Shown here piece by piece: positions 3,605 to 63,762 of a DNA stretch of 64,000 nucleotides. A program made the translations under genes and the position numbers. The stretch covers positions 363,302 to 427,301 of the forward strand of contig JBAZJZ010000001.1 of the NCBI GenBank assembly GCA_041650995.1. The letters are read 5' to 3'. Each line of letters opens with the position of its first letter. Within the stretch, counting starts at the first letter, position 1. The DNA is from Patescibacteria group bacterium. Its GTDB lineage: Bacteria; Patescibacteriota; Patescibacteriia; XYB2-FULL-38-15. The notes under the pieces were generated by a model that worked only from the letters and a program-made list of their open reading frames with translations, did not search any database and was not told the origin of the DNA.

Positions 3605-4033
3605 CTACAACTTCCACTTCTTGGGCTTGGTGATATTTGGCTCCTTGCCGTAAGTCGGCAAAACGATTTTCTCTCCTTCGCCTTTAATCATTTTTTCATA
3701 ACCTATTCTTAAAAATTCAATTTCACTTTTAAATTCCTCCTGTTTTAATCCAATAACCGGAATTTTAAGCAAACTTCCCAGAAGATTCGCCGCGACCACG
3801 CCGCCGCGCACCGCCGTAAAAGATCCCGGACCGGAGACCACGGCGATTCCCCCGATTTTCCCCACCTCTTTTTTATTTTTCTTAAAAATTTTATCAATCA
3901 AAAAAAGCAATTTATCTTTTGTTTCTTTTGTTGCCTCTTTTTTAATTTTTTTTCCGTCAAACAAAAAAACAGTTGCTTCGCCTAGAACCGCCGTATTAAT
4001 TCCTAATAATATTTTTTTATTTTTTAATTTCAT
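3605..4033 (-). CDS. tsaB: TsaB/YeaZ-like t6A biosynthesis protein (short form)
   Basis: VSGPGSFTAVRGG motif similar to YeaZ GPGSFTGLRIG. Confidence 0.55.
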   Translation of the reverse strand: MKLKNKKILLGINTAVLGEATVFLFDGKKIKKEATKETKDKLLFLIDKIFKKNKKEVGKIGGIAVVSGPGSFTAVRGGVVAANLLGSLLKIPVIGLKQEEFKSEIEFLRIGYEKMIKGEGEKIVLPTYGKEPNITKPKKWKL

Positions 4034-9688: not shown

Positions 9689-9857
9689 ATTGATAAGAAA
9701 TTATATAAATAAAAAACTGTGGGATTACCACAGAACACGAATGAAAAACCGAAAAATCACGGTTTTTACCTCGGCAGGAAATTAAGCCCCGCCTAAGCGG
9801 GACGCCTGCTGTCTTTGGTAATTTATTTATACTACAACATCCCCCAAAACCTGTCAA
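9689..9857 (-). promoter_or_regulatory. rplJ promoter (TTGACA-17-TAGTAT) and structured L10 leader with attenuator-like hairpins
   Basis: TTGACA at 9857-9852 on the minus strand; leader has cagcagg..cctgccg, aaaaccg..cggtttt and ctgtgg..cccacag+T-run hairpins. Confidence 0.35.
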
Positions 9858-9882
9858 GTTTAATTTGTCCACAGGACTTTCT

Positions 9883-9918
9883 AATAAAAAAGCCCGCCAT
9901 CCAGAGTGAATGACGGGC
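9883..9918 (-). terminator. terminator of GC-rich cassette G1
   Basis: gcccgtc...ggcgggc stem followed by TTTTTTATT on the minus strand. Confidence 0.45.
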
Positions 9919-9953
9919 AGAGACGGGCGTCCTAGACCGAGCGAATCCCGAGC

Positions 9954-10568
9954 CTAGAACTTCCGGCAGGAGGCCGAACCGTGATTCGGAAGAGCGCTAC
10001 CGCCCCAGCGCCAATCAAGCACGGTCCGACCGCTGATCACACGAAGACAGGCCACATCCTCGCGCTGCTTACGACGAACGGAACCCGGCAGGTCCATGAC
10101 GTGGCCGTCGCGGCGCGTGGTGTCGCTCACAACCTCGGGGTACTGGATGTAGGCCGAAACGGCTTCGAGCACCGTGAGGCCGAGTTCGTTCTTTGCGAAG
10201 TTGTGGCGACAGTCGACCACCGAACGGTTCCGGTTTTGACGGCCATCCTGCATCCGAATCCAAAAGGGAACTTCTGGATTACTGTGCAGAGCGTTCCACA
10301 ATTCGAAGGTTTTGTCGCTGCCGTCGAAGTCGATGTTGCCGCAAGCGCAGAGCCTCTTGAGCGGCAGCCGCGACTCCACGAGCACGAGGAGCGGAAAATC
10401 CTTGTCCGGAAGACGAAGCTGCGGAGGAATCTTGGGAATGGTCGCGAGGTACTTCTCGAAACTCGGAAAATCGAGCTCATGGCCGATGCCCGGCTCGCTG
10501 TTTCTCAAACGCGCCGTCTGGATCTCGTGCAGTTGGGCCACGTGGCCAAGATCGAAAAGGTCTCCCAT
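9954..10568 (-). CDS. G1: GC-rich cassette protein of unknown function (about 204 aa)
   Basis: AGGAGAAAAAAG-ATG Shine-Dalgarno; third-codon-position GC very high on the minus strand; own promoter and terminator. Confidence 0.5.
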   Translation of the reverse strand: MGDLFDLGHVAQLHEIQTARLRNSEPGIGHELDFPSFEKYLATIPKIPPQLRLPDKDFPLLVLVESRLPLKRLCACGNIDFDGSDKTFELWNALHSNPEVPFWIRMQDGRQNRNRSVVDCRHNFAKNELGLTVLEAVSAYIQYPEVVSDTTRRDGHVMDLPGSVRRKQREDVACLRVISGRTVLDWRWGGSALPNHGSASCRKF

Positions 10569-10621
10569 CTTTTTTCTCCTTCCATCCCGCGGCAGTTCCG
10601 GAGACAGCGCTTTGGCCATAA

Positions 10622-10703
10622 CCGGAATAAACCGAAGGACAGCTCGTCGCCGAACCCATTCCGGCGAACATTTTATTATTGTCTGTTTAAACAAAAAAGT
10701 CAA
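10622..10703 (-). promoter_or_regulatory. G1 promoter (TTGACT-17-AATAAT) and GC-rich hairpin leader
   Basis: minus-strand TTGACT at 10703-10698 and AATAAT at 10680-10675; ccggaat..attccgg hairpin at 10622-10664. Confidence 0.4.
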
Positions 10704-14333: not shown

Positions 14334-14362
14334 TTGACAAAATAAAAAAACAATGCCAAGAT
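14334..14362 (+). promoter_or_regulatory. G2 promoter (TTGACAAAA-17-CAAGAT)
   Basis: consensus -35 hexamer with 17-bp spacer. Confidence 0.45.
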
Positions 14363-14386
14363 GAGGCGAGGAAAAGGAGGTATTTT

Positions 14387-14758
14387 ATGGCCCAATCAGC
14401 GCGACCGGAGACTCCCAGACTGTATCGCCTCACGATTCGCCGCCCATCATCCGATCCAAAGACGCCAGAACTCATGGACATCGTCAGCGAAGCGTTTCTG
14501 TTCACCAAGCCGGACGGATTCCCCATGACCGAAGCCATCGCCAAACAGAGAGCCACGAGAGTCCAGGAAACACTGCCGCCGGGCTGGGAAGCCAAGGTCA
14601 CGGAAGAGCCCTTCCTTGTCACGCATGGCACGCCGGCAATCGTCGGCACCTGCCGACGCGCGACTTGCCAGAATTTCGGCATTGGGGCTCCAAATCGCTT
14701 CCGCTGCCCCGAGTGCGGCGAGCTGACCGCGATCGAGATGGTCGCAACCGTAGAGTAG
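14387..14758 (+). CDS. G2: GC-rich cassette protein (123 aa) with C-terminal Cys4 zinc-ribbon
   Basis: AAAAGGAGG-N6-ATG; C..C...C..C at the C-terminus; high GC at third codon position. Confidence 0.55.
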   Translation: MAQSARPETPRLYRLTIRRPSSDPKTPELMDIVSEAFLFTKPDGFPMTEAIAKQRATRVQETLPPGWEAKVTEEPFLVTHGTPAIVGTCRRATCQNFGIGAPNRFRCPECGELTAIEMVATVE

Positions 14759-14766
14759 CGACTTCA

Positions 14767-14821
14767 CCCGAACCGATTGACTGAGTTTAGGATAACTCTC
14801 CATCGGCTCGGGTATTTTTTA
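14767..14821 (+). terminator. G2 terminator
   Basis: cccgaaccgattg...catcggctcggg stem followed by a T-run. Confidence 0.5.
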
Positions 14822-19956: not shown

Positions 19957-20400
19957 ATGGAAGACGGAACGATGCTGCTCGACAGGGAAAAGCGGAAAGC
20001 GGAAATTGGCGGACGCCTCCAAGAATACGAGCGGGAAAATCCCGAAATCTGGCGAGTCATCCTCAGGGTTTTCAGAGTAGAAACGACCTACTCCAAATAT
20101 GATTTCCTGGAGGCAATGTGGTCATTGTTCGAAGGTCTGCGAATGGTCACAGAACTGCTCGGACAACTACCACTGATCCCGGCCGAGTCAGCCGAAAGGG
20201 TCTGGACCGAACTGCACGAAGCGCCTTCCGACGTGCTAAACAGCGAGGACTTCGACCGTTTTCGCTGCATCATCGAGTTTGGTTTCAGGACAGCGCTAAA
20301 TGCAGTAGTCCGGTCACCTGACATCAAGAAGCGGACCGAACGCATCTTCGCCATGATTCTCCGGATGGTTCAAATCGAACTGGACCGAAAACCAGACTGA
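19957..20400 (+). CDS. G3: GC-rich cassette protein, helical, unknown function (147 aa)
   Basis: GGAAAGGAGGGG-N5-ATG; high GC at third codon position. Confidence 0.55.
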   Translation: MEDGTMLLDREKRKAEIGGRLQEYERENPEIWRVILRVFRVETTYSKYDFLEAMWSLFEGLRMVTELLGQLPLIPAESAERVWTELHEAPSDVLNSEDFDRFRCIIEFGFRTALNAVVRSPDIKKRTERIFAMILRMVQIELDRKPD

Positions 20401-20415
20401 AAAGGGAGGAATAGC

Positions 20416-20458
20416 AAAGAGGCACCGACACGGCAAGCCTCTTTTTTTATTTTTTTAT
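20416..20458 (+). terminator. G3 terminator
   Basis: aagaggc...gcctctt stem followed by a T-run. Confidence 0.55.
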
Positions 20459-20465
20459 TTTACCC

Positions 20466-20494
20466 TTGACAAAAAATAAAAATTAAATTAAGAT
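20466..20494 (+). promoter_or_regulatory. G4 promoter (TTGACAAAA-17-TAAGAT)
   Basis: consensus -35 hexamer, 17-bp spacer. Confidence 0.45.
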
Positions 20495-20521
20495 TCATTG
20501 TTCCCCGGAAAGGAGAATTCC

Positions 20522-20995
20522 ATGGAAACCACGAGCGCCGACAAGCGCCAAAATCCCGTTCAAAATCAGTTTGAGCGTCTGGTCGCTGCCTTGCGGATGG
20601 AAGAATCCGCCGTGGCCGACTGGCTCGAGGAAACGCGGGACGACTTGGCCGGTATTTTCGGCGAGACGGAACTTGCCCTGGCCTGGGAAAACATCTCTTT
20701 TCTCTCCTACATCTGGGTGATGCTCGGCACGATCGAAAAGATGAGGGAGAAGGGCCGGTTGCCCACGATCACCGTCAACTCCTACCTACAAGCCACTCGC
20801 GAGTGGAACGACCGGGAAATCCGCGCTCAACTGGAGTGTGAGATCCTCAAGGCCATGCAGACGTTCCAACGCGAATCTTACGAAGACTTCGAAACTCTCC
20901 TCAGCGGTTCTCCTTCCGAGAACCAGAGGGCAGAAAGCTGTTGCCGCGGGAAGCTAGCAAAGCTCCTGCGTTTGGTCAGACTCTCTCAGCAGTAA
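20522..20995 (+). CDS. G4: GC-rich cassette protein, helical, unknown function (157 aa)
   Basis: AAAGGAGAA-N4-ATG; start METTSADKR. Confidence 0.55.
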   Translation: METTSADKRQNPVQNQFERLVAALRMEESAVADWLEETRDDLAGIFGETELALAWENISFLSYIWVMLGTIEKMREKGRLPTITVNSYLQATREWNDREIRAQLECEILKAMQTFQRESYEDFETLLSGSPSENQRAESCCRGKLAKLLRLVRLSQQ

Positions 20996-21010
20996 GAAAG
21001 GAGGCAAAAC

Positions 21011-36828: not shown

Positions 36829-37014
36829 ATTATATCAAAAAATTAAAATTAAAACAAAGCCCCCGAGTGATGCCCGGAGTGACACGCTTTAGCGTGTTAC
36901 TTACCGAAATAACAGCCTAAAGGCTGTCAGTCCGATTTATTAAAAATAAAAAAATGCCCCGTTCCATTTCTTCGGCTTTGTGAAAGCTTCAGATTTGAAA
37001 CGGGGCCAAGAGAC
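36829..37014. repeat. conserved structured flank, copy 1 (G5 terminator hairpins plus outward TGATATAAT promoter)
   Basis: about 80% identical to 56973-57176; three hairpins; extended -10 on the minus strand at 36837-36829. Confidence 0.7.
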
Positions 37015-37080
37015 CGAAAGTCCAAGGATCCGAGTGACCCGGCCTTTTTGAAGGGCCGAGTTACCCAGGATCCAAGGACC

Positions 37081-37542
37081 CTACTTGCGACGGAGCACCC
37101 GGAAGCCGCCGCCCCAGTCGTAGCCGAGCCAGCGCCAGTCCTGGCACCAGCCGTCGTCGTGCCAGCGGACGCACGCCACGAGCCCGCGGTCGACCGGGAA
37201 CCGCCAGTCCGGGAAGACGAAGACGACCTTGCCGCGGAGAGCGGCAGGGACCTCGTCCTGGTGGGCGAGGAGGAACTCGCAGTCCTCCTTGCCGAGGTTG
37301 GCGCCGAGCCTCTCGGCGCGGGCGACCATCACGCGGCCGACCACCGAGGTCTCGCCCTCCCAGAGGAAGGAGAGGATCTCGTAGGTGCGGCCGCCGATGG
37401 TCATCTCGGTGGGGAGGGAGGACTTGACGAGCGTCTCGGCGAACTCCCGCACCGCCTCGGTGTTGTCCGAGGAGACGAGTGCCGAGAACAGTTCGTCGCC
37501 GATCTCGCGCTGCAGATGGGCCGTAGAACGCAGAGTATCCAT
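37081..37542 (-). CDS. G5: GC-rich cassette protein, paralog of G8 (153 aa)
   Basis: shared block LPTEMT.GGRTYEILSFL...LGKEDCEF.LAHQDE.PAALRGK.VFVFPD with G8. Confidence 0.55.
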   Translation of the reverse strand: MDTLRSTAHLQREIGDELFSALVSSDNTEAVREFAETLVKSSLPTEMTIGGRTYEILSFLWEGETSVVGRVMVARAERLGANLGKEDCEFLLAHQDEVPAALRGKVVFVFPDWRFPVDRGLVACVRWHDDGWCQDWRWLGYDWGGGFRVLRRK

Positions 37543-37784
37543 TGCCGTTTCCTTTTGCCTCCTCTTTCGAGAAAGCGCACTCCTCGCCGACCTGGCAAAG
37601 AGGAAGCGCCGGTTTCCCAGCCTTCTTTCCAAATTTTATTATTCTTCGAGCGGAACGGAGCGAAGTCGAGAAGCGGTTCTCGACACCCCGCCGAATTGGC
37701 GGGTTGCTCGAACAATAAAATAGAGAAAGAAAACCGGGAAATTAACCAAAATTTCGCTTAAAAAGAACTATTTACTAACAATTA

Positions 37785-37827: not shown

Positions 37828-37888
37828 GTCATTCCCGCGAAAGCGAGAATCCAGATTACTGGATCCCCGGGTCAAGCCCGAGGATGAC
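37828..37888. mobile_element. MITE-like double-hairpin repeat, copy A
   Basis: GTCATTCCCGCGAAAGCGAGAATCCAG-ATTA-CTGGATCCCCGGGTCAAGCCCGAGGATGAC; terminal inverted repeats GTCAT(T/C)CCC / GGGGATGAC. Confidence 0.65.
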
Positions 37889-47379: not shown

Positions 47380-47581
47380 AAGTTTTCCTTTTCGCCTCTG
47401 TTTTGCCAAAACTTGCGGGTCCCGCCAGGGCGGGATCAGGAACAAGTTTTTAAGAGCAAAACATGTGGGATTATTTAAATTTAAGATTTTAGATTGTAGA
47501 TTGTAGATTTAAAACAAAAATCCATAACCCATAATCTATAATCCATTCTCGCACAAAACTAAAAATCGCGCAAGGGTTTAA

Positions 47582-47633
47582 TAAAAAAACGCCCTGCCGA
47601 GCCAAGCGTCGAAACACTTGACCTCGGCAGGGC
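47582..47633 (-). terminator. G6 terminator
   Basis: gccctgccgag...ctcggcagggc stem; T-run on the minus strand. Confidence 0.55.
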
Positions 47634-47639
47634 TGAAGG

Positions 47640-48332
47640 TCAGGGCCCGTCGTGACCGTAGACCCTGAAGCGCTCACCGGTCTCCGGCCGTTCGTAGGCC
47701 AGATACCAGGAGACGCCCACGCTGAGCGGATCCTCGCCCGGACGACGTGAACGTGTCGCGTCCACCTCACCGAGCATCAGATCCGTCGGTCGGACCTCCT
47801 CCTTGCGACGCGACGGGAGAAGGAGAATCTCCTCGCGCTTGAGTGCGGTCGGCAGCATGGGTGAGGTGTAGTAGAAGTCGCCCTGGGCCGTCACGTAGAT
47901 CTTGAGCGGCCAGAGCGACTCGCCGCCGTCGTGCGTCCGCAGAACCTTGATCTTGCGAACCAGGTGATCGGTCGGCTGAACCTGATCCATCGGACGGCCC
48001 GGCCGCGGACAGAGTCTGTCCCACTCATCGTCCGAGAGAGGGACATCACAGAAGAAGTTCGGGCAGACACCCAGGATAAGCGGACTGCCGCAGTTCCTAC
48101 AGCGTTCCGGCGTACCACCACAGGTGTGCAGCATCACGCCCCCGCCGATGACGATCTGGCTGGCCTGACACTGAACGTACCGAGCCACCTTGACCACTCG
48201 TACGAAGGGCTCCACGCACTCATTGCCGTAGATGCTGTTCTGGAACAGCACCCGGGCGTAGTGGGCCATGACGCGCCTCTCGGCCGCGAAGCAGCCGACG
48301 CAGATCTCGTTCTGGCTCATCTTCTCCTCCAT
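47640..48332 (-). CDS. G6: GC-rich cassette protein, Cys-rich (multiple CxxC zinc-ribbon-like pairs), 230 aa
   Basis: CVGC..C..C, CGGTPERCRNCG, CPNFFC; high GC at third codon position. Confidence 0.5.
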   Translation of the reverse strand: MEEKMSQNEICVGCFAAERRVMAHYARVLFQNSIYGNECVEPFVRVVKVARYVQCQASQIVIGGGVMLHTCGGTPERCRNCGSPLILGVCPNFFCDVPLSDDEWDRLCPRPGRPMDQVQPTDHLVRKIKVLRTHDGGESLWPLKIYVTAQGDFYYTSPMLPTALKREEILLLPSRRKEEVRPTDLMLGEVDATRSRRPGEDPLSVGVSWYLAYERPETGERFRVYGHDGP

Positions 48333-48380
48333 CCTCTGGCTGTTCCTCAGCCAAGGTCCAAGTCCATCTTGGAACTTATA

Positions 48381-48409
48381 AAAATATCACAGAAAATTAT
48401 TTTTGTCAA
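48381..48409 (-). promoter_or_regulatory. G6 promoter (GGGGTTGACAAAA-17-TATTTT)
   Basis: minus-strand TTGACA at 48409-48404. Confidence 0.4.
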
Positions 48410-48549
48410 CCCCGTAGTGAAATTTCGGATCTCCGCCCGAAGGCGGAAAAAAATATTTTAATTTTAGAAATATTTTAATTAGAAACACTGTTCCCTTGCT
48501 TGCTTAAACCAATTTTACCATTCCGAAATTCTACTACGGGGCAACCCCC
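48410..48549. repeat. 20-bp inverted repeats (ccccgtagtgaaatttcgga / tccgaaattctactacgggg) flanking a hairpin, overlapping the G6 promoter
   Basis: 18/20 complementary arms at 48410-48429 and 48522-48541. Confidence 0.6.
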
Positions 48550-48598
48550 TAATTAACCCTTGCTTTTTTAACGTATTTTTGCTAAATTAAATACACAA

Positions 48599-50414: not shown

Positions 50415-50437
50415 AAAATAATAAATATAATAAAAAA

Positions 50438-50462
50438 ACCGGCCGCAAGGCCGGTTTTTTGT
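50438..50462 (+). terminator. prfA terminator
   Basis: accggccgcaaggccggt followed by a T-run. Confidence 0.65.
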
Positions 50463-50469
50463 ATAGAAC

Positions 50470-50547
50470 TTGACAAATTAATCTTTTTATAATATTCTAA
50501 AAACATCAAACAGGGTGGCCTTTCGTTTTTGGCGCGCGCCGAAAACG
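50470..50547 (+). promoter_or_regulatory. G7 promoter (TTGACAAAT.. with TATAAT/TATTCT) and leader hairpin cgtttttggcgcgcgccgaaaacg
   Basis: -35 at 50470-50475; perfect palindrome at 50524-50547. Confidence 0.4.
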
Positions 50548-50622
50548 TGAAGGAAGGTGGCCCTAAATCTCGGCCCGACGGACGGGACGAGTTAAAATAG
50601 GGAAGGTTGAGGAGGATAGGGA

Positions 50623-50832
50623 ATGTTGAATCCGATTTGGGTCGACGGAATACGCCTCGTCGACGACAATGGCCAACCGCTTTGGGCGGATCGTGGCCCC
50701 ATCGAAATTTCGTCGAGGCGACCGCATCAGCCCGGTGGCGAAGGGAATGACGACATGTTCTTCCCGGACGACGAAGAAGCGGCCAGGCGGCGAAGCGACG
50801 CCCGGAAGAGAGACCGTCGGCGCCAGCAGTAG
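50623..50832 (+). CDS. G7: GC-rich small cassette protein (69 aa), acidic then Arg-rich tail
   Basis: GAGGAGGATAGGGA-ATG Shine-Dalgarno; followed by about 150 nt GC-rich untranslated region and a terminator. Confidence 0.4.
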   Translation: MLNPIWVDGIRLVDDNGQPLWADRGPIEISSRRPHQPGGEGNDDMFFPDDEEAARRRSDARKRDRRRQQ

Positions 50833-50987
50833 TATCCCGTCCCACCATCAACGTGAGAGCTGCGAGCTTCGCTCGCCCACTCTCCGTTTCAAGTTCGCGC
50901 CCCCCCTCCCGGAAGCGGCGCGAAGCCCGCGTAGCGGAAAACGGGGAACACGAGTTCCCCGCCCCCCCCTCCTCGCTACCGGGCCCC

Positions 50988-51050
50988 AGCCCGTGGATTG
51001 TTTTGGAGAGATCTCCCCTCCTTCAAGCAGTCCACGGGCTCCTTTTTTTA
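50988..51050 (+). terminator. G7 terminator
   Basis: agcccgtgga...tccacgggct stem followed by a T-run. Confidence 0.5.
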
Positions 51051-51065
51051 TGCTACAATAATCGC

Positions 51066-56972: not shown

Positions 56973-57176
56973 ATTATATCAAAAAAATTAAATTAAAACA
57001 AAGGCACTCTGGCAAAAAAAATTCGGCGTGACACCCGGAGTGACACCCTTTAGGGTGTTATTTCAAACAACATTGTAACAGCCTAAAGGCTGTCAGTCCG
57101 ATTTATTAAAAAATAAAAAAACGGCCCCGCTTCATTTCCTTTGCTTTGTGAGCATTAGATTTGAAACGGGGCCAAG
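56973..57176. repeat. conserved structured flank, copy 2 (G8 terminator hairpins plus outward TGATATAAT promoter)
   Basis: about 80% identical to 36829-37014. Confidence 0.7.
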
Positions 57177-57189
57177 GAACCTTCTGTCT

Positions 57190-57250
57190 GTCATTCCCGC
57201 GAAAGCGGGAATCCAGATTACTGGATCCCCGGGTTAAACCCGAGGACGAC
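57190..57250. mobile_element. MITE-like double-hairpin repeat, copy B
   Basis: GTCATTCCCGCGAAAGCGGGAATCCAG-ATTA-CTGGATCCCCGGGTTAAACCCGAGGACGAC. Confidence 0.65.
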
Positions 57251-57264
57251 ATTGAGGTTGTGGG

Positions 57265-57789
57265 CTACGCGGCTTTGCGACGGAGCACCCGAGCGCCGTC
57301 GTCCCAGCCGACGTCGAGCCAGCCCCAGTACTGGTACCAGCGGTCGCCGCGCCAGCGGAGGTACGCCACGCACTCGCGGCCGACGGGGTACCGCATGTCC
57401 GGGAAAACGAAGACGATCTTGCCGCGGAGTGCGGCGGGAATCTCGTCCTGGTGGGCGAGGATGAACTCGCAGTCCTCCTTGCCGAGGTAGGCGCCGAGCT
57501 TCTCGGCGCGGGCGACCATGGTGTGGCCGTGGACGCGCTCCTCGCCCTCCCGGAGAAAGGAGAGGATCTCGTAGGTGCGGCCGCCGACCGTCATTTCGGT
57601 GGGGAGTTCCAGCTCCGTGGGCTTCGCGGGCTGCCTCGCGATGAGTGCGCCATCGAGCGTCGTGGCCAACAAATCCTGATGCAGAATCCAAAATTGGGCC
57701 AACTCCGGCTCCATGTCCCGCGGCAGAGAGCGCAGCACTGCCGCACCGAGTTCCGCAAACTGATCCGTTCCGAGTTTCTTCTTTCCCAT
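57265..57789 (-). CDS. G8: GC-rich cassette protein, paralog of G5 (174 aa)
   Basis: AAGGAGGAAGCG-ATG; conserved block shared with G5. Confidence 0.55.
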   Translation of the reverse strand: MGKKKLGTDQFAELGAAVLRSLPRDMEPELAQFWILHQDLLATTLDGALIARQPAKPTELELPTEMTVGGRTYEILSFLREGEERVHGHTMVARAEKLGAYLGKEDCEFILAHQDEIPAALRGKIVFVFPDMRYPVGRECVAYLRWRGDRWYQYWGWLDVGWDDGARVLRRKAA

Positions 57790-58045
57790 CGCTTCCTCCT
57801 TGGCTTATCCTGGTTCATCTCTTTAGGAGAGGCAGGACTTAAGGAGAGGCAGGACTTACCAAAAGCGGCTGGAACCCTTTCCCAGCCTTGTTTTGATTGT
57901 GCTCCCCTCTTAAGATAAGAGGGGCTGGGGGCGTTATGAATCTTTGTTTTTAAATCTACAACTCATAACCCCTCTTAATCTCCCCTTACCTTAAGGGGAG
58001 AAACCAGAGCACTGCCAAAAGAAAGGTAGAAACTTCCAACGTTTC

Positions 58046-63703: not shown

Positions 63704-63762
63704 GTCATCCCCGACCTGATCGGGGATCCAGTAATCTGGATTCCCGCTTTCGCGGGAATGAC
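63704..63762. mobile_element. MITE-like double-hairpin repeat, copy D (opposite orientation)
   Basis: GTCATCCCCGACCTGATCGGGGATCCAG-TAAT-CTGGATTCCCGCTTTCGCGGGAATGAC, reverse complement of the A/B type. Confidence 0.65.

What the first reader, a model, noticed from the sequence alone, without database searches (positions are those of the whole stretch)
47582..48549. Cys-rich cassette G6 with 20-bp inverted repeats embracing its promoter region
G6 (230 aa) has at least four CxxC pairs and looks like a multi-zinc-ribbon protein. Its promoter GGGGTTGACAAAA overlaps the left arm of an imperfect inverted repeat (48410-48429 versus 48522-48541, 18 of 20 positions). The repeats flank an about 90-bp segment containing a ccgcccgaaggcgg hairpin. 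This could be an operator for a dimeric regulator, an invertible or excisable switch, or the footprint of the element's ends.
Basis: seen in the sequence. Interest (0 to 1): 0.55.

Follow-up and report, generated by a model that had tools for sequence, protein, structure and literature searches.

The report
Small transposon beside an orphan gene's promoter
The 20-base inverted repeats are the two ends of a 132-bp non-coding mobile element (a MITE) that landed in the -35 box of the promoter of G6, a zinc-binding protein of unknown function carried on a GC-rich gene cassette in a Falkowbacteria genome. They are not a regulator's binding site or a flip switch.

Summary
The inverted repeat is real: 48410-48429 versus 48522-48541, 18 of 20, about 0.05 expected by chance. 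It is neither an operator nor an invertible switch.

A metagenome scan found three more copies at unrelated loci. They share the same 20-nt termini, have different interiors, and are flanked by a 4-bp direct repeat (TTGA/TCAA). In all four copies the element sits in the TTGA of a TTGACA -35 hexamer, which the duplication regenerates. The other three promoters drive a 23S-5S rRNA operon, a Band7/HflC gene and another GC-rich cassette. An ortholog of the Band7 locus and a homologous cassette promoter both lack the element. The repeats are therefore the terminal inverted repeats of a nested 132-bp MITE.

G6 is most likely 226 aa, not 230. It has two CxxC pairs, not four, and eight conserved Cys/His ligands, enough for two zinc sites. 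It belongs to a tiny orphan family, all of whose members with retrieved context sit in Patescibacteria-type DNA. The family has no Pfam, NCBIfam, PHROG, PADLOC or PDB match, despite a confident AlphaFold model.

G6 lies on a 980-bp, 62% GC cassette with its own promoter and terminator. The cassette is inserted in a palindrome upstream of rpsB. That site is empty in the closest relative and holds different GC-rich cargo in others.

The repeat itself is ordinary. The apparent -35 targeting and the persistently GC-rich cassettes are the interesting leftovers.

The parts
47570..47576 (.). Host palindrome half GCAAGGG, rpsB-side border of the cassette insertion
   Evidence: In the empty site of the closest relative, L100 (tCAAGAGGCCCCCTTGCa), the two halves abut. 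The same halves flank other cargo in L101-L105.
47577..48556 (-). Inserted GC-rich cassette (980 bp): nested MITE, promoter, 5'UTR, G6 and terminator
   Evidence: Absent from L100 and L106, where the intergenic spacers are 209-230 bp. GC is 0.62 against 0.416 for the window.
47583..47633 (-). Intrinsic terminator of G6: stem 47591-47601 / 47623-47633, followed by U7
   Evidence: RNA fold -35.2 kcal/mol, z-score -6.2, followed by UUUUUUU.
47640..48320 (-). G6 coding sequence (226 aa plus stop). The upstream in-frame ATG at 48332 would give the 230-aa form.
   Evidence: GC3 is 0.80 against 0.36-0.47 in host genes. dN/dS is 0.4-0.5 against homologs. P0001 is 100% identical and starts at MSQNE.
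48324..48330 (-). Shine-Dalgarno sequence GGAGGAG
   Evidence: Read from the sequence. Conserved in the homologous L104 5'UTR.
48333..48373 (-). Two small 5'UTR hairpins
   Evidence: Predicted in both the window and L104, with a compensatory change in the second stem (GGCTG/CAGCC versus GGCCG/CGGCC).
48381..48409 (-). Sigma-70-type promoter of G6: -35 TTGACA at 48404-48409, 17-nt spacer, TG-extended -10 TATTTT at 48381-48386
   Evidence: Promoter scan gives 10 of 12 matches plus TG. The promoter is homologous to that of L104 cassette 1.
48406..48409 (.). Promoter-side copy of the MITE target-site duplication (TCAA on the plus strand, TTGA on the minus strand), part of the -35 hexamer
   Evidence: The same 4-bp direct repeat flanks the copies in L180, L182 and L183.
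48410..48541 (-). MITE, 132 bp, non-coding
   Evidence: Three further copies have the same termini, different interiors and 4-bp duplications. Empty sites are L186/L187 and the L104 promoter.
48410..48429 (.). Promoter-side terminal inverted repeat (the finding's left arm)
48432..48447 (.). GC-rich hairpin next to the promoter-side repeat (tccgcccgaaggcgga). Not a terminator on either strand: the T-run precedes the hairpin.
   Evidence: Every family copy has a GC hairpin 1-3 nt from this repeat.
48522..48541 (.). Far-side terminal inverted repeat (the finding's right arm)
48542..48544 (.). Far-side copy of the target-site duplication (CAA; one base short of TCAA)
48557..48563 (.). Host palindrome half CCCTTGC, border of the cassette insertion on the membrane-protein-gene side

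Best explanation
The two 20-nt arms are the terminal inverted repeats of a 132-bp non-autonomous transposable element (a MITE).

The element inserted into the TTGA of the -35 hexamer (TTGACA) of the G6 promoter. The 4-bp target duplication left an intact TTGACA next to its promoter-side end, so the promoter core survives. Everything upstream of -35 is now MITE DNA. The 92-nt interior is AT-rich, with one GC hairpin beside the promoter-side repeat. It is the element's body, not a switchable segment.

G6 is the single gene of a 980-bp, 62% GC accessory cassette. The cassette has its own consensus promoter, a two-hairpin 5'UTR, a strong Shine-Dalgarno sequence and an intrinsic terminator. It sits in a small palindrome (GCAAGGG / CCCTTGC) upstream of rpsB in a Candidatus Falkowbacteria genome.

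G6 is a fast-evolving orphan protein whose retrieved homologs all lie in Patescibacteria-type DNA. It has an N-terminal helical region, about eight conserved Cys/His ligands (two predicted zinc sites), and a C-terminal ~70-aa beta-rich domain that also exists as a stand-alone protein.

Shown:
- the repeat, the duplications and the other copies
- empty sites for both the MITE and the cassette
- that G6 is protein-coding

Inferred:
- transposition by a trans-acting DDE-type transposase
- zinc binding
- that the promoter remains functional

The biochemical role of G6 remains a guess. My guess is nucleic-acid or protein binding in an accessory or conflict function.
For: The repeat is real and non-random.

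Other copies. A metagenome scan with the 20-nt arm found paired arms at L180 3722-3818, L182 1613-1736 and L183 8099-8228. The alignment shows:
- near-invariant termini
- divergent flanks
- interiors of 57, 84 and 90 nt in the other three copies, against 92 nt here
- 4-bp direct repeats: TCAA...TCAA (L180, L182), TTGA...TTGA (L183), TTG-...TTGA (window)

Target. In all four copies the promoter-side duplication is followed by CA, giving TTGACA, and a TAnnnT -10 lies exactly 17 nt downstream. The three other promoters drive 23S-5S rRNA (L180), a Band7/HflC gene (L182) and a GC-rich cassette (L183).

Empty sites for the MITE. The Band7 ortholog (93% aa) in L186/L187 has an uninterrupted ggtgTTGACAAAA. 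L104 cassette 1 carries a promoter and 5'UTR about 80% identical to G6's, with GGGTTGACAAAAAT uninterrupted. Removing the MITE and one TTG from the window restores GGGGGTTGACAAAA, the motif found at two other cassette promoters in the window.

Against inversion. No recombinase or transposase is called within 10 kb. Three assemblies are 100% identical in one orientation.

Cassette. The site is empty in L100 and L106 and holds different cargo in L101-L105, L108 and L109. The terminator is confirmed by folding.

G6.
- GC3 is 0.80 and dN/dS is 0.4-0.5.
- Only 3 homologs were found among 5.8 billion proteins, and 15 among 1.84 billion representatives.
- The ligands C7, C10, H65, C67, C74, C77, C86 and C91 are conserved.
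- The AlphaFold model has pLDDT 86.4 but no Foldseek hit at E <= 1e-3 in PDB or BFVD.
- No Pfam, PADLOC, PHROGs or NCBIfam family matches.
Against: - Only four copies are known, each in a different contig. No second copy was seen in this window or in about 640 kb of related loci, so multi-copy status within one genome is not shown.
- No autonomous element with the same termini was found.
- The window's far-side duplication is one base short (TTG rather than TTGA).
- Presence at four promoters could reflect selection on where insertions survive, rather than target choice.
- The effect of the insertion on G6 transcription is untested.
- Zinc binding and G6's function are inferred only.
Confidence: 0.82

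Rival explanations
1. The arms are operator half-sites, or MITE-borne binding sites, for a regulator that controls G6, possibly by DNA looping across 112 bp.
For: One arm abuts the -35 hexamer, where class II activators and repressors act. The two mismatched positions between the arms are the same in all four copies, which hints at constraint.
Against: The arm centres are 112 bp apart, not the few bp expected of a dimer operator. The same arms occur with target duplications at rRNA, Band7 and other promoters in other genomes. No regulator gene is adjacent. The homologous L104 promoter lacks them.
Confidence: 0.06
2. The repeats bound an invertible (fimS/hin-like) or excisable DNA switch that changes G6 expression.
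For: Two near-perfect inverted repeats flank a short segment next to a promoter.
Against: The promoter (-35 and -10) lies outside the segment, so inversion would not reorient it. The interior has no terminator in either orientation, because its T-run precedes the hairpin on the G6 strand. No recombinase is called within 10 kb. Three assemblies and all four family copies show one orientation.
Confidence: 0.03
3. The repeats are the ends or recombination site of the G6 cassette itself, as in an attC-like site or the footprint of the cassette's own mobility.
For: The module sits only 15 bp inside one border of the 980-bp insert. Analogous repeat modules sit at cassette borders in L101 and L102.
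Against: Both arms are at the same end of the cassette. The cassette's borders are the host palindrome halves at 47570-47576 and 48557-48563. The same repeat element occurs at non-cassette promoters (rRNA, Band7). G6 homologs in L001 and L003 have no such repeat. There is no integron core (GTTRRRY), the module is 5' of the ORF, and the cassette has its own promoter.
Confidence: 0.04
4. The repeat-bounded segment encodes a structured small RNA or acts as a transcriptional insulator upstream of the promoter.
For: Either strand folds into a long hairpin: -52 kcal/mol (z-score -5.7) for the minus strand and -43 kcal/mol (z-score -6.2) for the plus strand.
Against: Any inverted repeat folds this way. 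No Rfam family matches even at E <= 1. The interiors are not conserved among copies. No hairpin-plus-U-run exists in either direction.
Confidence: 0.05

Closest known systems
Bacterial MITEs, such as Correia/NEMIS elements of Neisseria, RUP of Streptococcus pneumoniae and ERIC/IRU of enterobacteria (from my own knowledge)
   Same: A 100-150 bp non-coding element with terminal inverted repeats and a short target-site duplication. It is intergenic and often next to promoters, where it can change transcription. Copies are present or absent at orthologous sites.
   Different: The termini (CCCCGTAGTRRAATTTCGGA) matched nothing else in the collections scanned. The duplication is 4 bp, TTGA. All four known copies sit in a TTGACA -35 hexamer and regenerate it. 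Copy number appears very low. No partner transposase is known.
IS elements that create or disrupt promoters through their ends (hybrid -35 promoters of IS1, IS2, IS256 and similar; review PMC9330008, found but not read)
   Same: A mobile-element end lies directly against a -35 hexamer.
   Different: Here the -35 comes from the duplicated target, not from the element. The element is non-coding.
Phage 'morons' and mobile insertion cassettes such as MIC231 of Bacillus cereus (from my own knowledge)
   Same: The G6 cassette is a single accessory gene with its own promoter and terminator. Its base composition is alien to its surroundings. It is inserted between two genes that are adjacent in a relative.
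   Different: It sits among core ribosomal and translation genes of a Patescibacteria chromosome, not in a prophage. No IS-type terminal repeats bound it. It lies inside a short host palindrome that is a multi-cargo hot spot.
Invertible promoter switches (fimS/FimBE, hin/hix)
   Same: Inverted repeats near a promoter.
   Different: The promoter is outside the repeats, there is no recombinase, and only one orientation is seen.
Zinc-ribbon and treble-clef zinc-finger proteins
   Same: CxxC...CxxxxC and CxxC...HxC ligand sets, with eight conserved ligands.
   Different: No sequence or fold match to any Pfam zinc-ribbon family or PDB chain. The two-helix N-terminal hairpin and the C-terminal beta domain are unclassified.

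Membership tests
MITE (miniature inverted-repeat transposable element) | Short (under about 500 bp) and non-coding | tested here: met
   132 bp. No ORF of 40 aa or more lies within it.
MITE (miniature inverted-repeat transposable element) | Terminal inverted repeats | tested here: met
   20-nt arms, 18/20 complementary, conserved in four copies.
MITE (miniature inverted-repeat transposable element) | Flanking target-site duplication | tested here: met
   4-bp TTGA/TCAA is perfect in L180, L182 and L183. In the window it is 3 of 4 bases (TTG / TTGA).
MITE (miniature inverted-repeat transposable element) | Copies at unrelated loci, with presence or absence at orthologous sites | tested here: met
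   Four loci with unrelated flanks. Empty sites are L186/L187 and the L104 promoter.
MITE (miniature inverted-repeat transposable element) | Multiple copies within one genome | tested here: inconclusive
   One copy in the 64-kb window and none in L004 beyond the same locus. The rest of the genome was not available.
MITE (miniature inverted-repeat transposable element) | A cognate autonomous IS with the same termini | not testable with these tools
   The metagenome scan returned only short paired arms. No ISfinder comparison was possible.
Invertible promoter switch | The promoter or regulatory element lies between the inverted repeats | tested here: not met
   The -35 and -10 are at 48381-48409, outside 48410-48541.
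Invertible promoter switch | An adjacent site-specific recombinase gene | tested here: not met
   Called genes within 10 kb on either side carry no recombinase Pfam family. G6 has no Pfam hit.
Invertible promoter switch | Both orientations present in a population | tested here: inconclusive
   Three assemblies show one orientation.
Integron gene cassette / attC | An attC with RYYYAAC...GTTRRRY cores 3' of a promoterless ORF, in an array next to intI | tested here: not met
   The module is 5' of the ORF. The cassette has its own promoter and terminator. There are no core sites and no intI nearby.
Dimeric-regulator operator | Two half-sites separated by a few bp, specific to one regulon | tested here: not met
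   92 nt lie between the arms. Copies sit at unrelated promoters with target duplications.
Zinc-ribbon protein | Paired CxxC (or CxxH) knuckles conserved in homologs | tested here: inconclusive
   Eight conserved ligands (C7, C10, H65, C67, C74, C77, C86, C91) in 10 full-length or N-terminal homologs. No Pfam zinc-ribbon match. Metal binding was not measured.
Moron-like autonomous accessory cassette | Own promoter and terminator, atypical composition, inserted between genes that are adjacent in a relative | tested here: met
Moron-like autonomous accessory cassette | Resides in a prophage | tested here: not met
   The neighbours are rpsB, tsf, rpmE and prfA. No PHROG hits.

The most novel reading that the evidence does not exclude
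Two linked ideas remain open.

(a) This MITE family homes specifically to the TTGACA -35 hexamer of strong promoters (rRNA, housekeeping and cassette promoters). By duplicating TTGA it regenerates the promoter. That would make it a promoter-targeting, promoter-sparing transposon that rewires the upstream (UP-element or activator) region without killing the gene.

(b) The GC-rich single-gene cassettes it associates with form a Patescibacteria-specific accessory gene pool. They are exchanged at palindromic hot spots. Their promoter/5'UTR, ORF and terminator modules are shuffled between cassettes. Their GC3 of 0.76-0.93 is maintained over saturating divergence by an unseen GC-rich reservoir replicon or by GC-biased gene conversion.
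Probability: 0.3. Interest if true: 0.7.

Novelty: new member of a known kind. Interest (0 to 1): 0.4.

Why it matters
The finding itself resolves into an ordinary class of object, a MITE next to a promoter. This removes a candidate switch or operator from the list.

Two things could matter beyond that. First, a transposon that lands in -35 hexamers and rebuilds them would be a neat natural tool for promoter rewiring. It would also mark active promoters in uncultivated Patescibacteria. Second, G6 and its sister cassettes show that a 41% GC, reduced genome carries many 60-66% GC orphan genes. These have consensus promoters and sit at hot spots that are empty or differently filled in close relatives. 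No donor outside Patescibacteria was detectable. Explaining how such genes stay GC-rich would say something about gene flow, or about biased recombination, in the Candidate Phyla Radiation.

Tried and rejected
- A viral-contig scan with a 14-base core of the arm gave 94 single, unpaired hits. The longest were a phage coding sequence (peptide DPKFYY). These are chance matches.
- One of the four metagenome hits (L181, 63% GC) is a single arm inside unrelated DNA and was discarded.
- AlphaFold with only three sequences was unusable (pLDDT 45.8). It was repeated with 16 sequences.
- The profile search against PDB sequences found nothing significant; the best hit had E = 0.084.
- Rfam found nothing in the region, even at E <= 1.
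- I considered that GCAAGGGTTTAATA / TAATTAACCCTTGC (47570 / 48550) were cassette terminal repeats. The empty site in L100 shows that the GCAAGGG/CCCTTGC halves belong to the host site.
- I considered a degenerate tRNA 3' end or att site in the arm, because G6 homologs in L001 and L003 lie next to a tRNA. The similarity is weak and the MITE copies explain the arm better.
- I considered REP/REPIN elements, because the arm contains GTAG. I rejected this because the arms are not themselves palindromes and the copies have target duplications.
- Literature searches for GC-rich cassettes or MITEs in Patescibacteria found nothing relevant.
I worked round this with a homolog search.

Full report
**Setting.** The window is 41.6% GC. 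It encodes core genes around the finding: gap, a PSP1-domain protein, tsf and rpsB on the minus strand, and rpmE, prfA and prmC on the plus strand. RpsB is 94% identical to that of a Candidatus Falkowbacteria metagenome-assembled genome (MAG), locus L100. A paralogous cassette protein carries an NCBI 'Patescibacteria group bacterium' name. Seven islands of 56-66% GC interrupt the sequence. The finding covers one of them.

**The observation.** The inverted repeat is exactly where stated: 48410-48429 against 48522-48541, 18/20 complementary, with 92 nt between the arms.
- The arm occurs nowhere else in the window, and no match is expected in shuffles.
- Only two repeats of this quality exist in the 64 kb, against 0.05 in Markov simulations.
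- The -35 hexamer TTGACA (48404-48409, minus strand) directly abuts the left arm. It is followed by a 17-nt spacer and a TG-extended -10.
- The ccgcccgaaggcgg hairpin is at 48433-48446.
- The protein description is less accurate. G6 has two CxxC pairs, one Cx4C and one HxC, not four CxxC pairs.
- The start is most likely the second ATG (48320, 226 aa). It follows GGAGGAG. The database copy starts there. The first ATG is not conserved in a homologous 5'UTR.

**What the repeat is.** A scan of JGI metagenome contigs with CCCCGTAGTRRAATTTCGGA returned four contigs. One is a lone arm in 63% GC DNA and is a chance match. The other three (L180, L182, L183) carry both arms, with 57, 84 and 90 nt between them. 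The alignment of the four copies shows:
- The termini are near-invariant, including the same two arm-to-arm mismatches in every copy.
- The interiors are only partly alignable. The L180 interior is unrelated. The L183 interior shares the ccgccttcgg hairpin.
- The flanks are unrelated.
- Each copy is bracketed by a 4-bp direct repeat: TCAA...TCAA in L180 and L182, TTGA...TTGA in L183, and TTG...TTGA in the window (one base missing).

This is the anatomy of a MITE with a 4-bp target-site duplication.

Two empty sites support mobility.
- The Band7/HflC gene downstream of the L182 copy has a 93%-identical ortholog in L186/L187. The ortholog's promoter reads ggtgTTGACAAAA with no insert.
- Cassette 1 of L104 has a promoter and 5'UTR about 80% identical to G6's over about 95 nt, up to the start codon. 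It has an uninterrupted GGGTTGACAAAAAT and a different ORF.

Deleting the 132 bp and one TTG from the window restores GGGGGTTGACAAAA. This motif is also found at the promoters of two other cassettes in the window.

**Target.** In all four copies the duplication on one side is followed by CA, giving TTGACA. A TAnnnT hexamer lies exactly 17 nt further on: TATTTT, TATTAT, TAGTAT and TATACT. The promoters drive four different things:
- G6
- another GC-rich cassette (L183)
- a Band7 gene (L182)
- a 23S-5S rRNA operon (L180)

The scan pattern contained only the arm, so the flanks are unbiased. CA after TTGA in four of four copies has a probability of about 1e-5. The element therefore either prefers TTGACA or survives only there. 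Survival there is plausible because the duplication rebuilds the -35. Orientation is the same in all four copies, but with n = 4 this is not significant (p about 0.125).

**Rival readings.**
- *Operator.* This is unlikely. The arm centres are 112 bp apart. The same arms occur at unrelated promoters with duplications. No regulator gene is nearby.
- *Invertible switch.* This is unlikely for four reasons.
  - The promoter is outside the repeats.
  - The interior has no hairpin-then-U-run in either orientation.
  - No recombinase is called within 10 kb.
  - The window, an ENA assembly (L004) and a Logan assembly (L005) are 100% identical in one orientation.
- *Cassette ends.* The repeats are not the cassette's ends (next section).
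- *Structured RNA.* No Rfam family matches, even at E <= 1.

**The cassette.**
- *Borders.* Aligning the closest relative (L100), where the membrane-protein gene and rpsB are 209 bp apart, places the window's insert at 47577-48556 (980 bp). It lies between GCAAGGG and CCCTTGC. These two halves abut in L100 as CAAGAGGCCCCCTTGC.
- *Other occupants.* L106 is also empty at this site. L101, L102 and L103 carry a small (~70-80-aa) GC-rich ORF there. L104 carries two cassettes. L105 carries a 3.4-kb operon including a radical-SAM-like gene. L108 and L109 carry other cargo. Where the borders were read (L101-L105) the cargo lies between the same palindrome halves.
- *Module shuffling.* L104 cassette 1 has G6's promoter and 5'UTR. 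L101, L102 and L104 cassette 1 share one terminator, and L103 and L104 cassette 2 share another.
- *G6's own terminator.* It is a -35 kcal/mol hairpin followed by U7.
- *Homolog locations.* The G6 homologs in L001/L002 and L003 sit at a different locus, between a tRNA/HSP20 region and tsaD. They have different promoters and no copy of this repeat.

**G6 protein.** G6 is a real gene. GC3 is 0.80 against GC2 of 0.46. dN/dS against homologs is 0.4-0.5, while dS is 0.9-1.4 for the distant pairs.

The family is tiny.
- Three clusters were found among 5.8 billion proteins.
- Fifteen were found among 1.84 billion representatives with a profile search.
- Every homolog whose contig held enough flanking DNA to judge (L001-L003, L184) sits in Patescibacteria-type DNA.

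The wider alignment conserves C7, C10, H65, C67, C74, C77, C86 and C91. That is enough for two zinc sites: a C74/C77/C86/C91 ribbon, and a site joining the N-terminus to H65/C67. The C-terminal ~70 residues (EEIMALP...AYERPxTGERFRVY) also occur alone in 90-115-aa proteins. In one case (P0017) they are fused to an XRE-type helix-turn-helix domain.

With 16 sequences AlphaFold gives pLDDT 86.4 and pTM 0.71. Foldseek finds nothing at E <= 1e-3 in PDB or BFVD. Pfam, NCBIfam, PHROGs, PADLOC and PDB sequence searches are all empty. The function is therefore unknown. My guess is a zinc-stabilised binding protein with an accessory or conflict role, and this is inference only.

**Comparison and novelty.** The repeat is a new family of a known kind of element, the bacterial MITE. 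It resembles Correia, RUP and ERIC elements in size, repeats, duplication and promoter proximity. It differs in three ways:
- its termini
- its TTGA duplication
- its position inside a -35 hexamer in all four known copies

The cassette behaves like a moron or a mobile insertion cassette, but it sits among core genes and at a palindromic hot spot. No paper describing either was found.

**Verdict.**
- The operator and switch readings are rejected.
- The 'element ends' reading holds, but for a nested MITE.
- Interest in the finding itself is moderate to low.
- The leftovers deserve follow-up: the -35 targeting, and the persistently GC-rich orphan cassettes known only from Patescibacteria-type contexts.

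Noticed in passing
window 9871-10670, 14351-14810, 19971-21000, 36991-37630, 50511-51060, 57171-57820 (plus the G6 island): Six other GC-rich islands (56-66% GC) lie in this 41.6% GC genome. Candidate ORFs have GC3 of 0.61-0.93. Each island has a TTGACA-type promoter and a hairpin-plus-T-run terminator. None has a Pfam, NCBIfam, PHROG or PADLOC hit. Six of the eight exact TTGACAAAA sites in the window are cassette promoters.
   Followed up: partly
window 37081-37632(-) and 57265-57789(-): These two cassette proteins are paralogs, sharing LPTEMT[IV]GGRTYEILSF...VLRRK. The family has 43 homologs. All those that carry a name are hypothetical proteins of Patescibacteria, Falkowbacteria or Parcubacteria (or unclassified 'bacterium') MAGs, and none is named from a GC-rich organism.
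   Followed up: partly
G6 homologs in L001, L003 and L184 compared with their flanks: GC3 stays at 0.76-0.86 in homologs whose synonymous sites are saturated (dS 0.9-1.4). Flanking DNA, measured for L001 and L003, is 44-46% GC. Recent transfer from a GC-rich donor does not explain this, and no donor is detectable.
   Followed up: partly
L101 2251-2318; L102 about 3786-3856: A second MITE-like family has termini CCCCCACACCAATT(T), unrelated interiors and 4-bp duplications (CAAG/CTTG). It is inserted in the GCAAGGGG / CCCCTTGC palindrome halves that border the cassettes.
   Followed up: partly
window 37638-37719; also L101 and L103 intergenic regions: Another palindromic repeat family, ATTATTSTTCGAGC...GCTCGAASAATAA, lies in the 5' leader of the 37081 cassette and at cassette borders in relatives.
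   Followed up: no
window 37828-37868, 57190-57230, 63722-63762; also L001, L003, L184: The repeat GTCATTCCCGCGAAAGCGGGAATCCAGATTACTGGATCCCC recurs next to the cassettes. Translated, it gives the spurious 'FPRKRES' ORFs.
   Followed up: no
window 47385-47471 (rpsB leader; hairpin about 47417-47437): The sequence upstream of rpsB is conserved in L100-L106. It contains a hairpin with compensatory changes (tcccgcc/ggcggga, tccggcg/cgccgga, tccccgc/gcgggga). This is probably the rpsB promoter or an autoregulatory leader. It has no Rfam match.
   Followed up: no
L003 9490-9760: Upstream of the G6 homolog, the 3' end of a tRNA gene (ccccgtggcggtacca plus its terminator) is duplicated on either side of an approximately 170-bp GC-rich insert. 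This looks like an integration at the tRNA 3' end.
   Followed up: no
window 48333-48373 and L104 2435-2475: The shared cassette 5'UTR has two small hairpins just upstream of the Shine-Dalgarno sequence. The second stem shows one compensatory pair change. The same promoter and 5'UTR drive two unrelated ORFs.
   Followed up: partly
window 9701-9836(-): An L10 leader (Rfam RF00557, 62.7 bits) was the only Rfam gathering-level hit in the window. It lies just beside the 9871-10670 GC-rich island.
   Followed up: no
window 57041-57095: This is the only other inverted repeat of at least 18/20 within 200 nt in the window. It is the long terminator hairpin of the 57265 cassette.
   Followed up: no
window 50415-51062 compared with L100 120-1974: The prfA-prmC spacer is a second variable spot. 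It is about 650 bp with a GC-rich island here, and about 1.85 kb in the closest relative.
   Followed up: no
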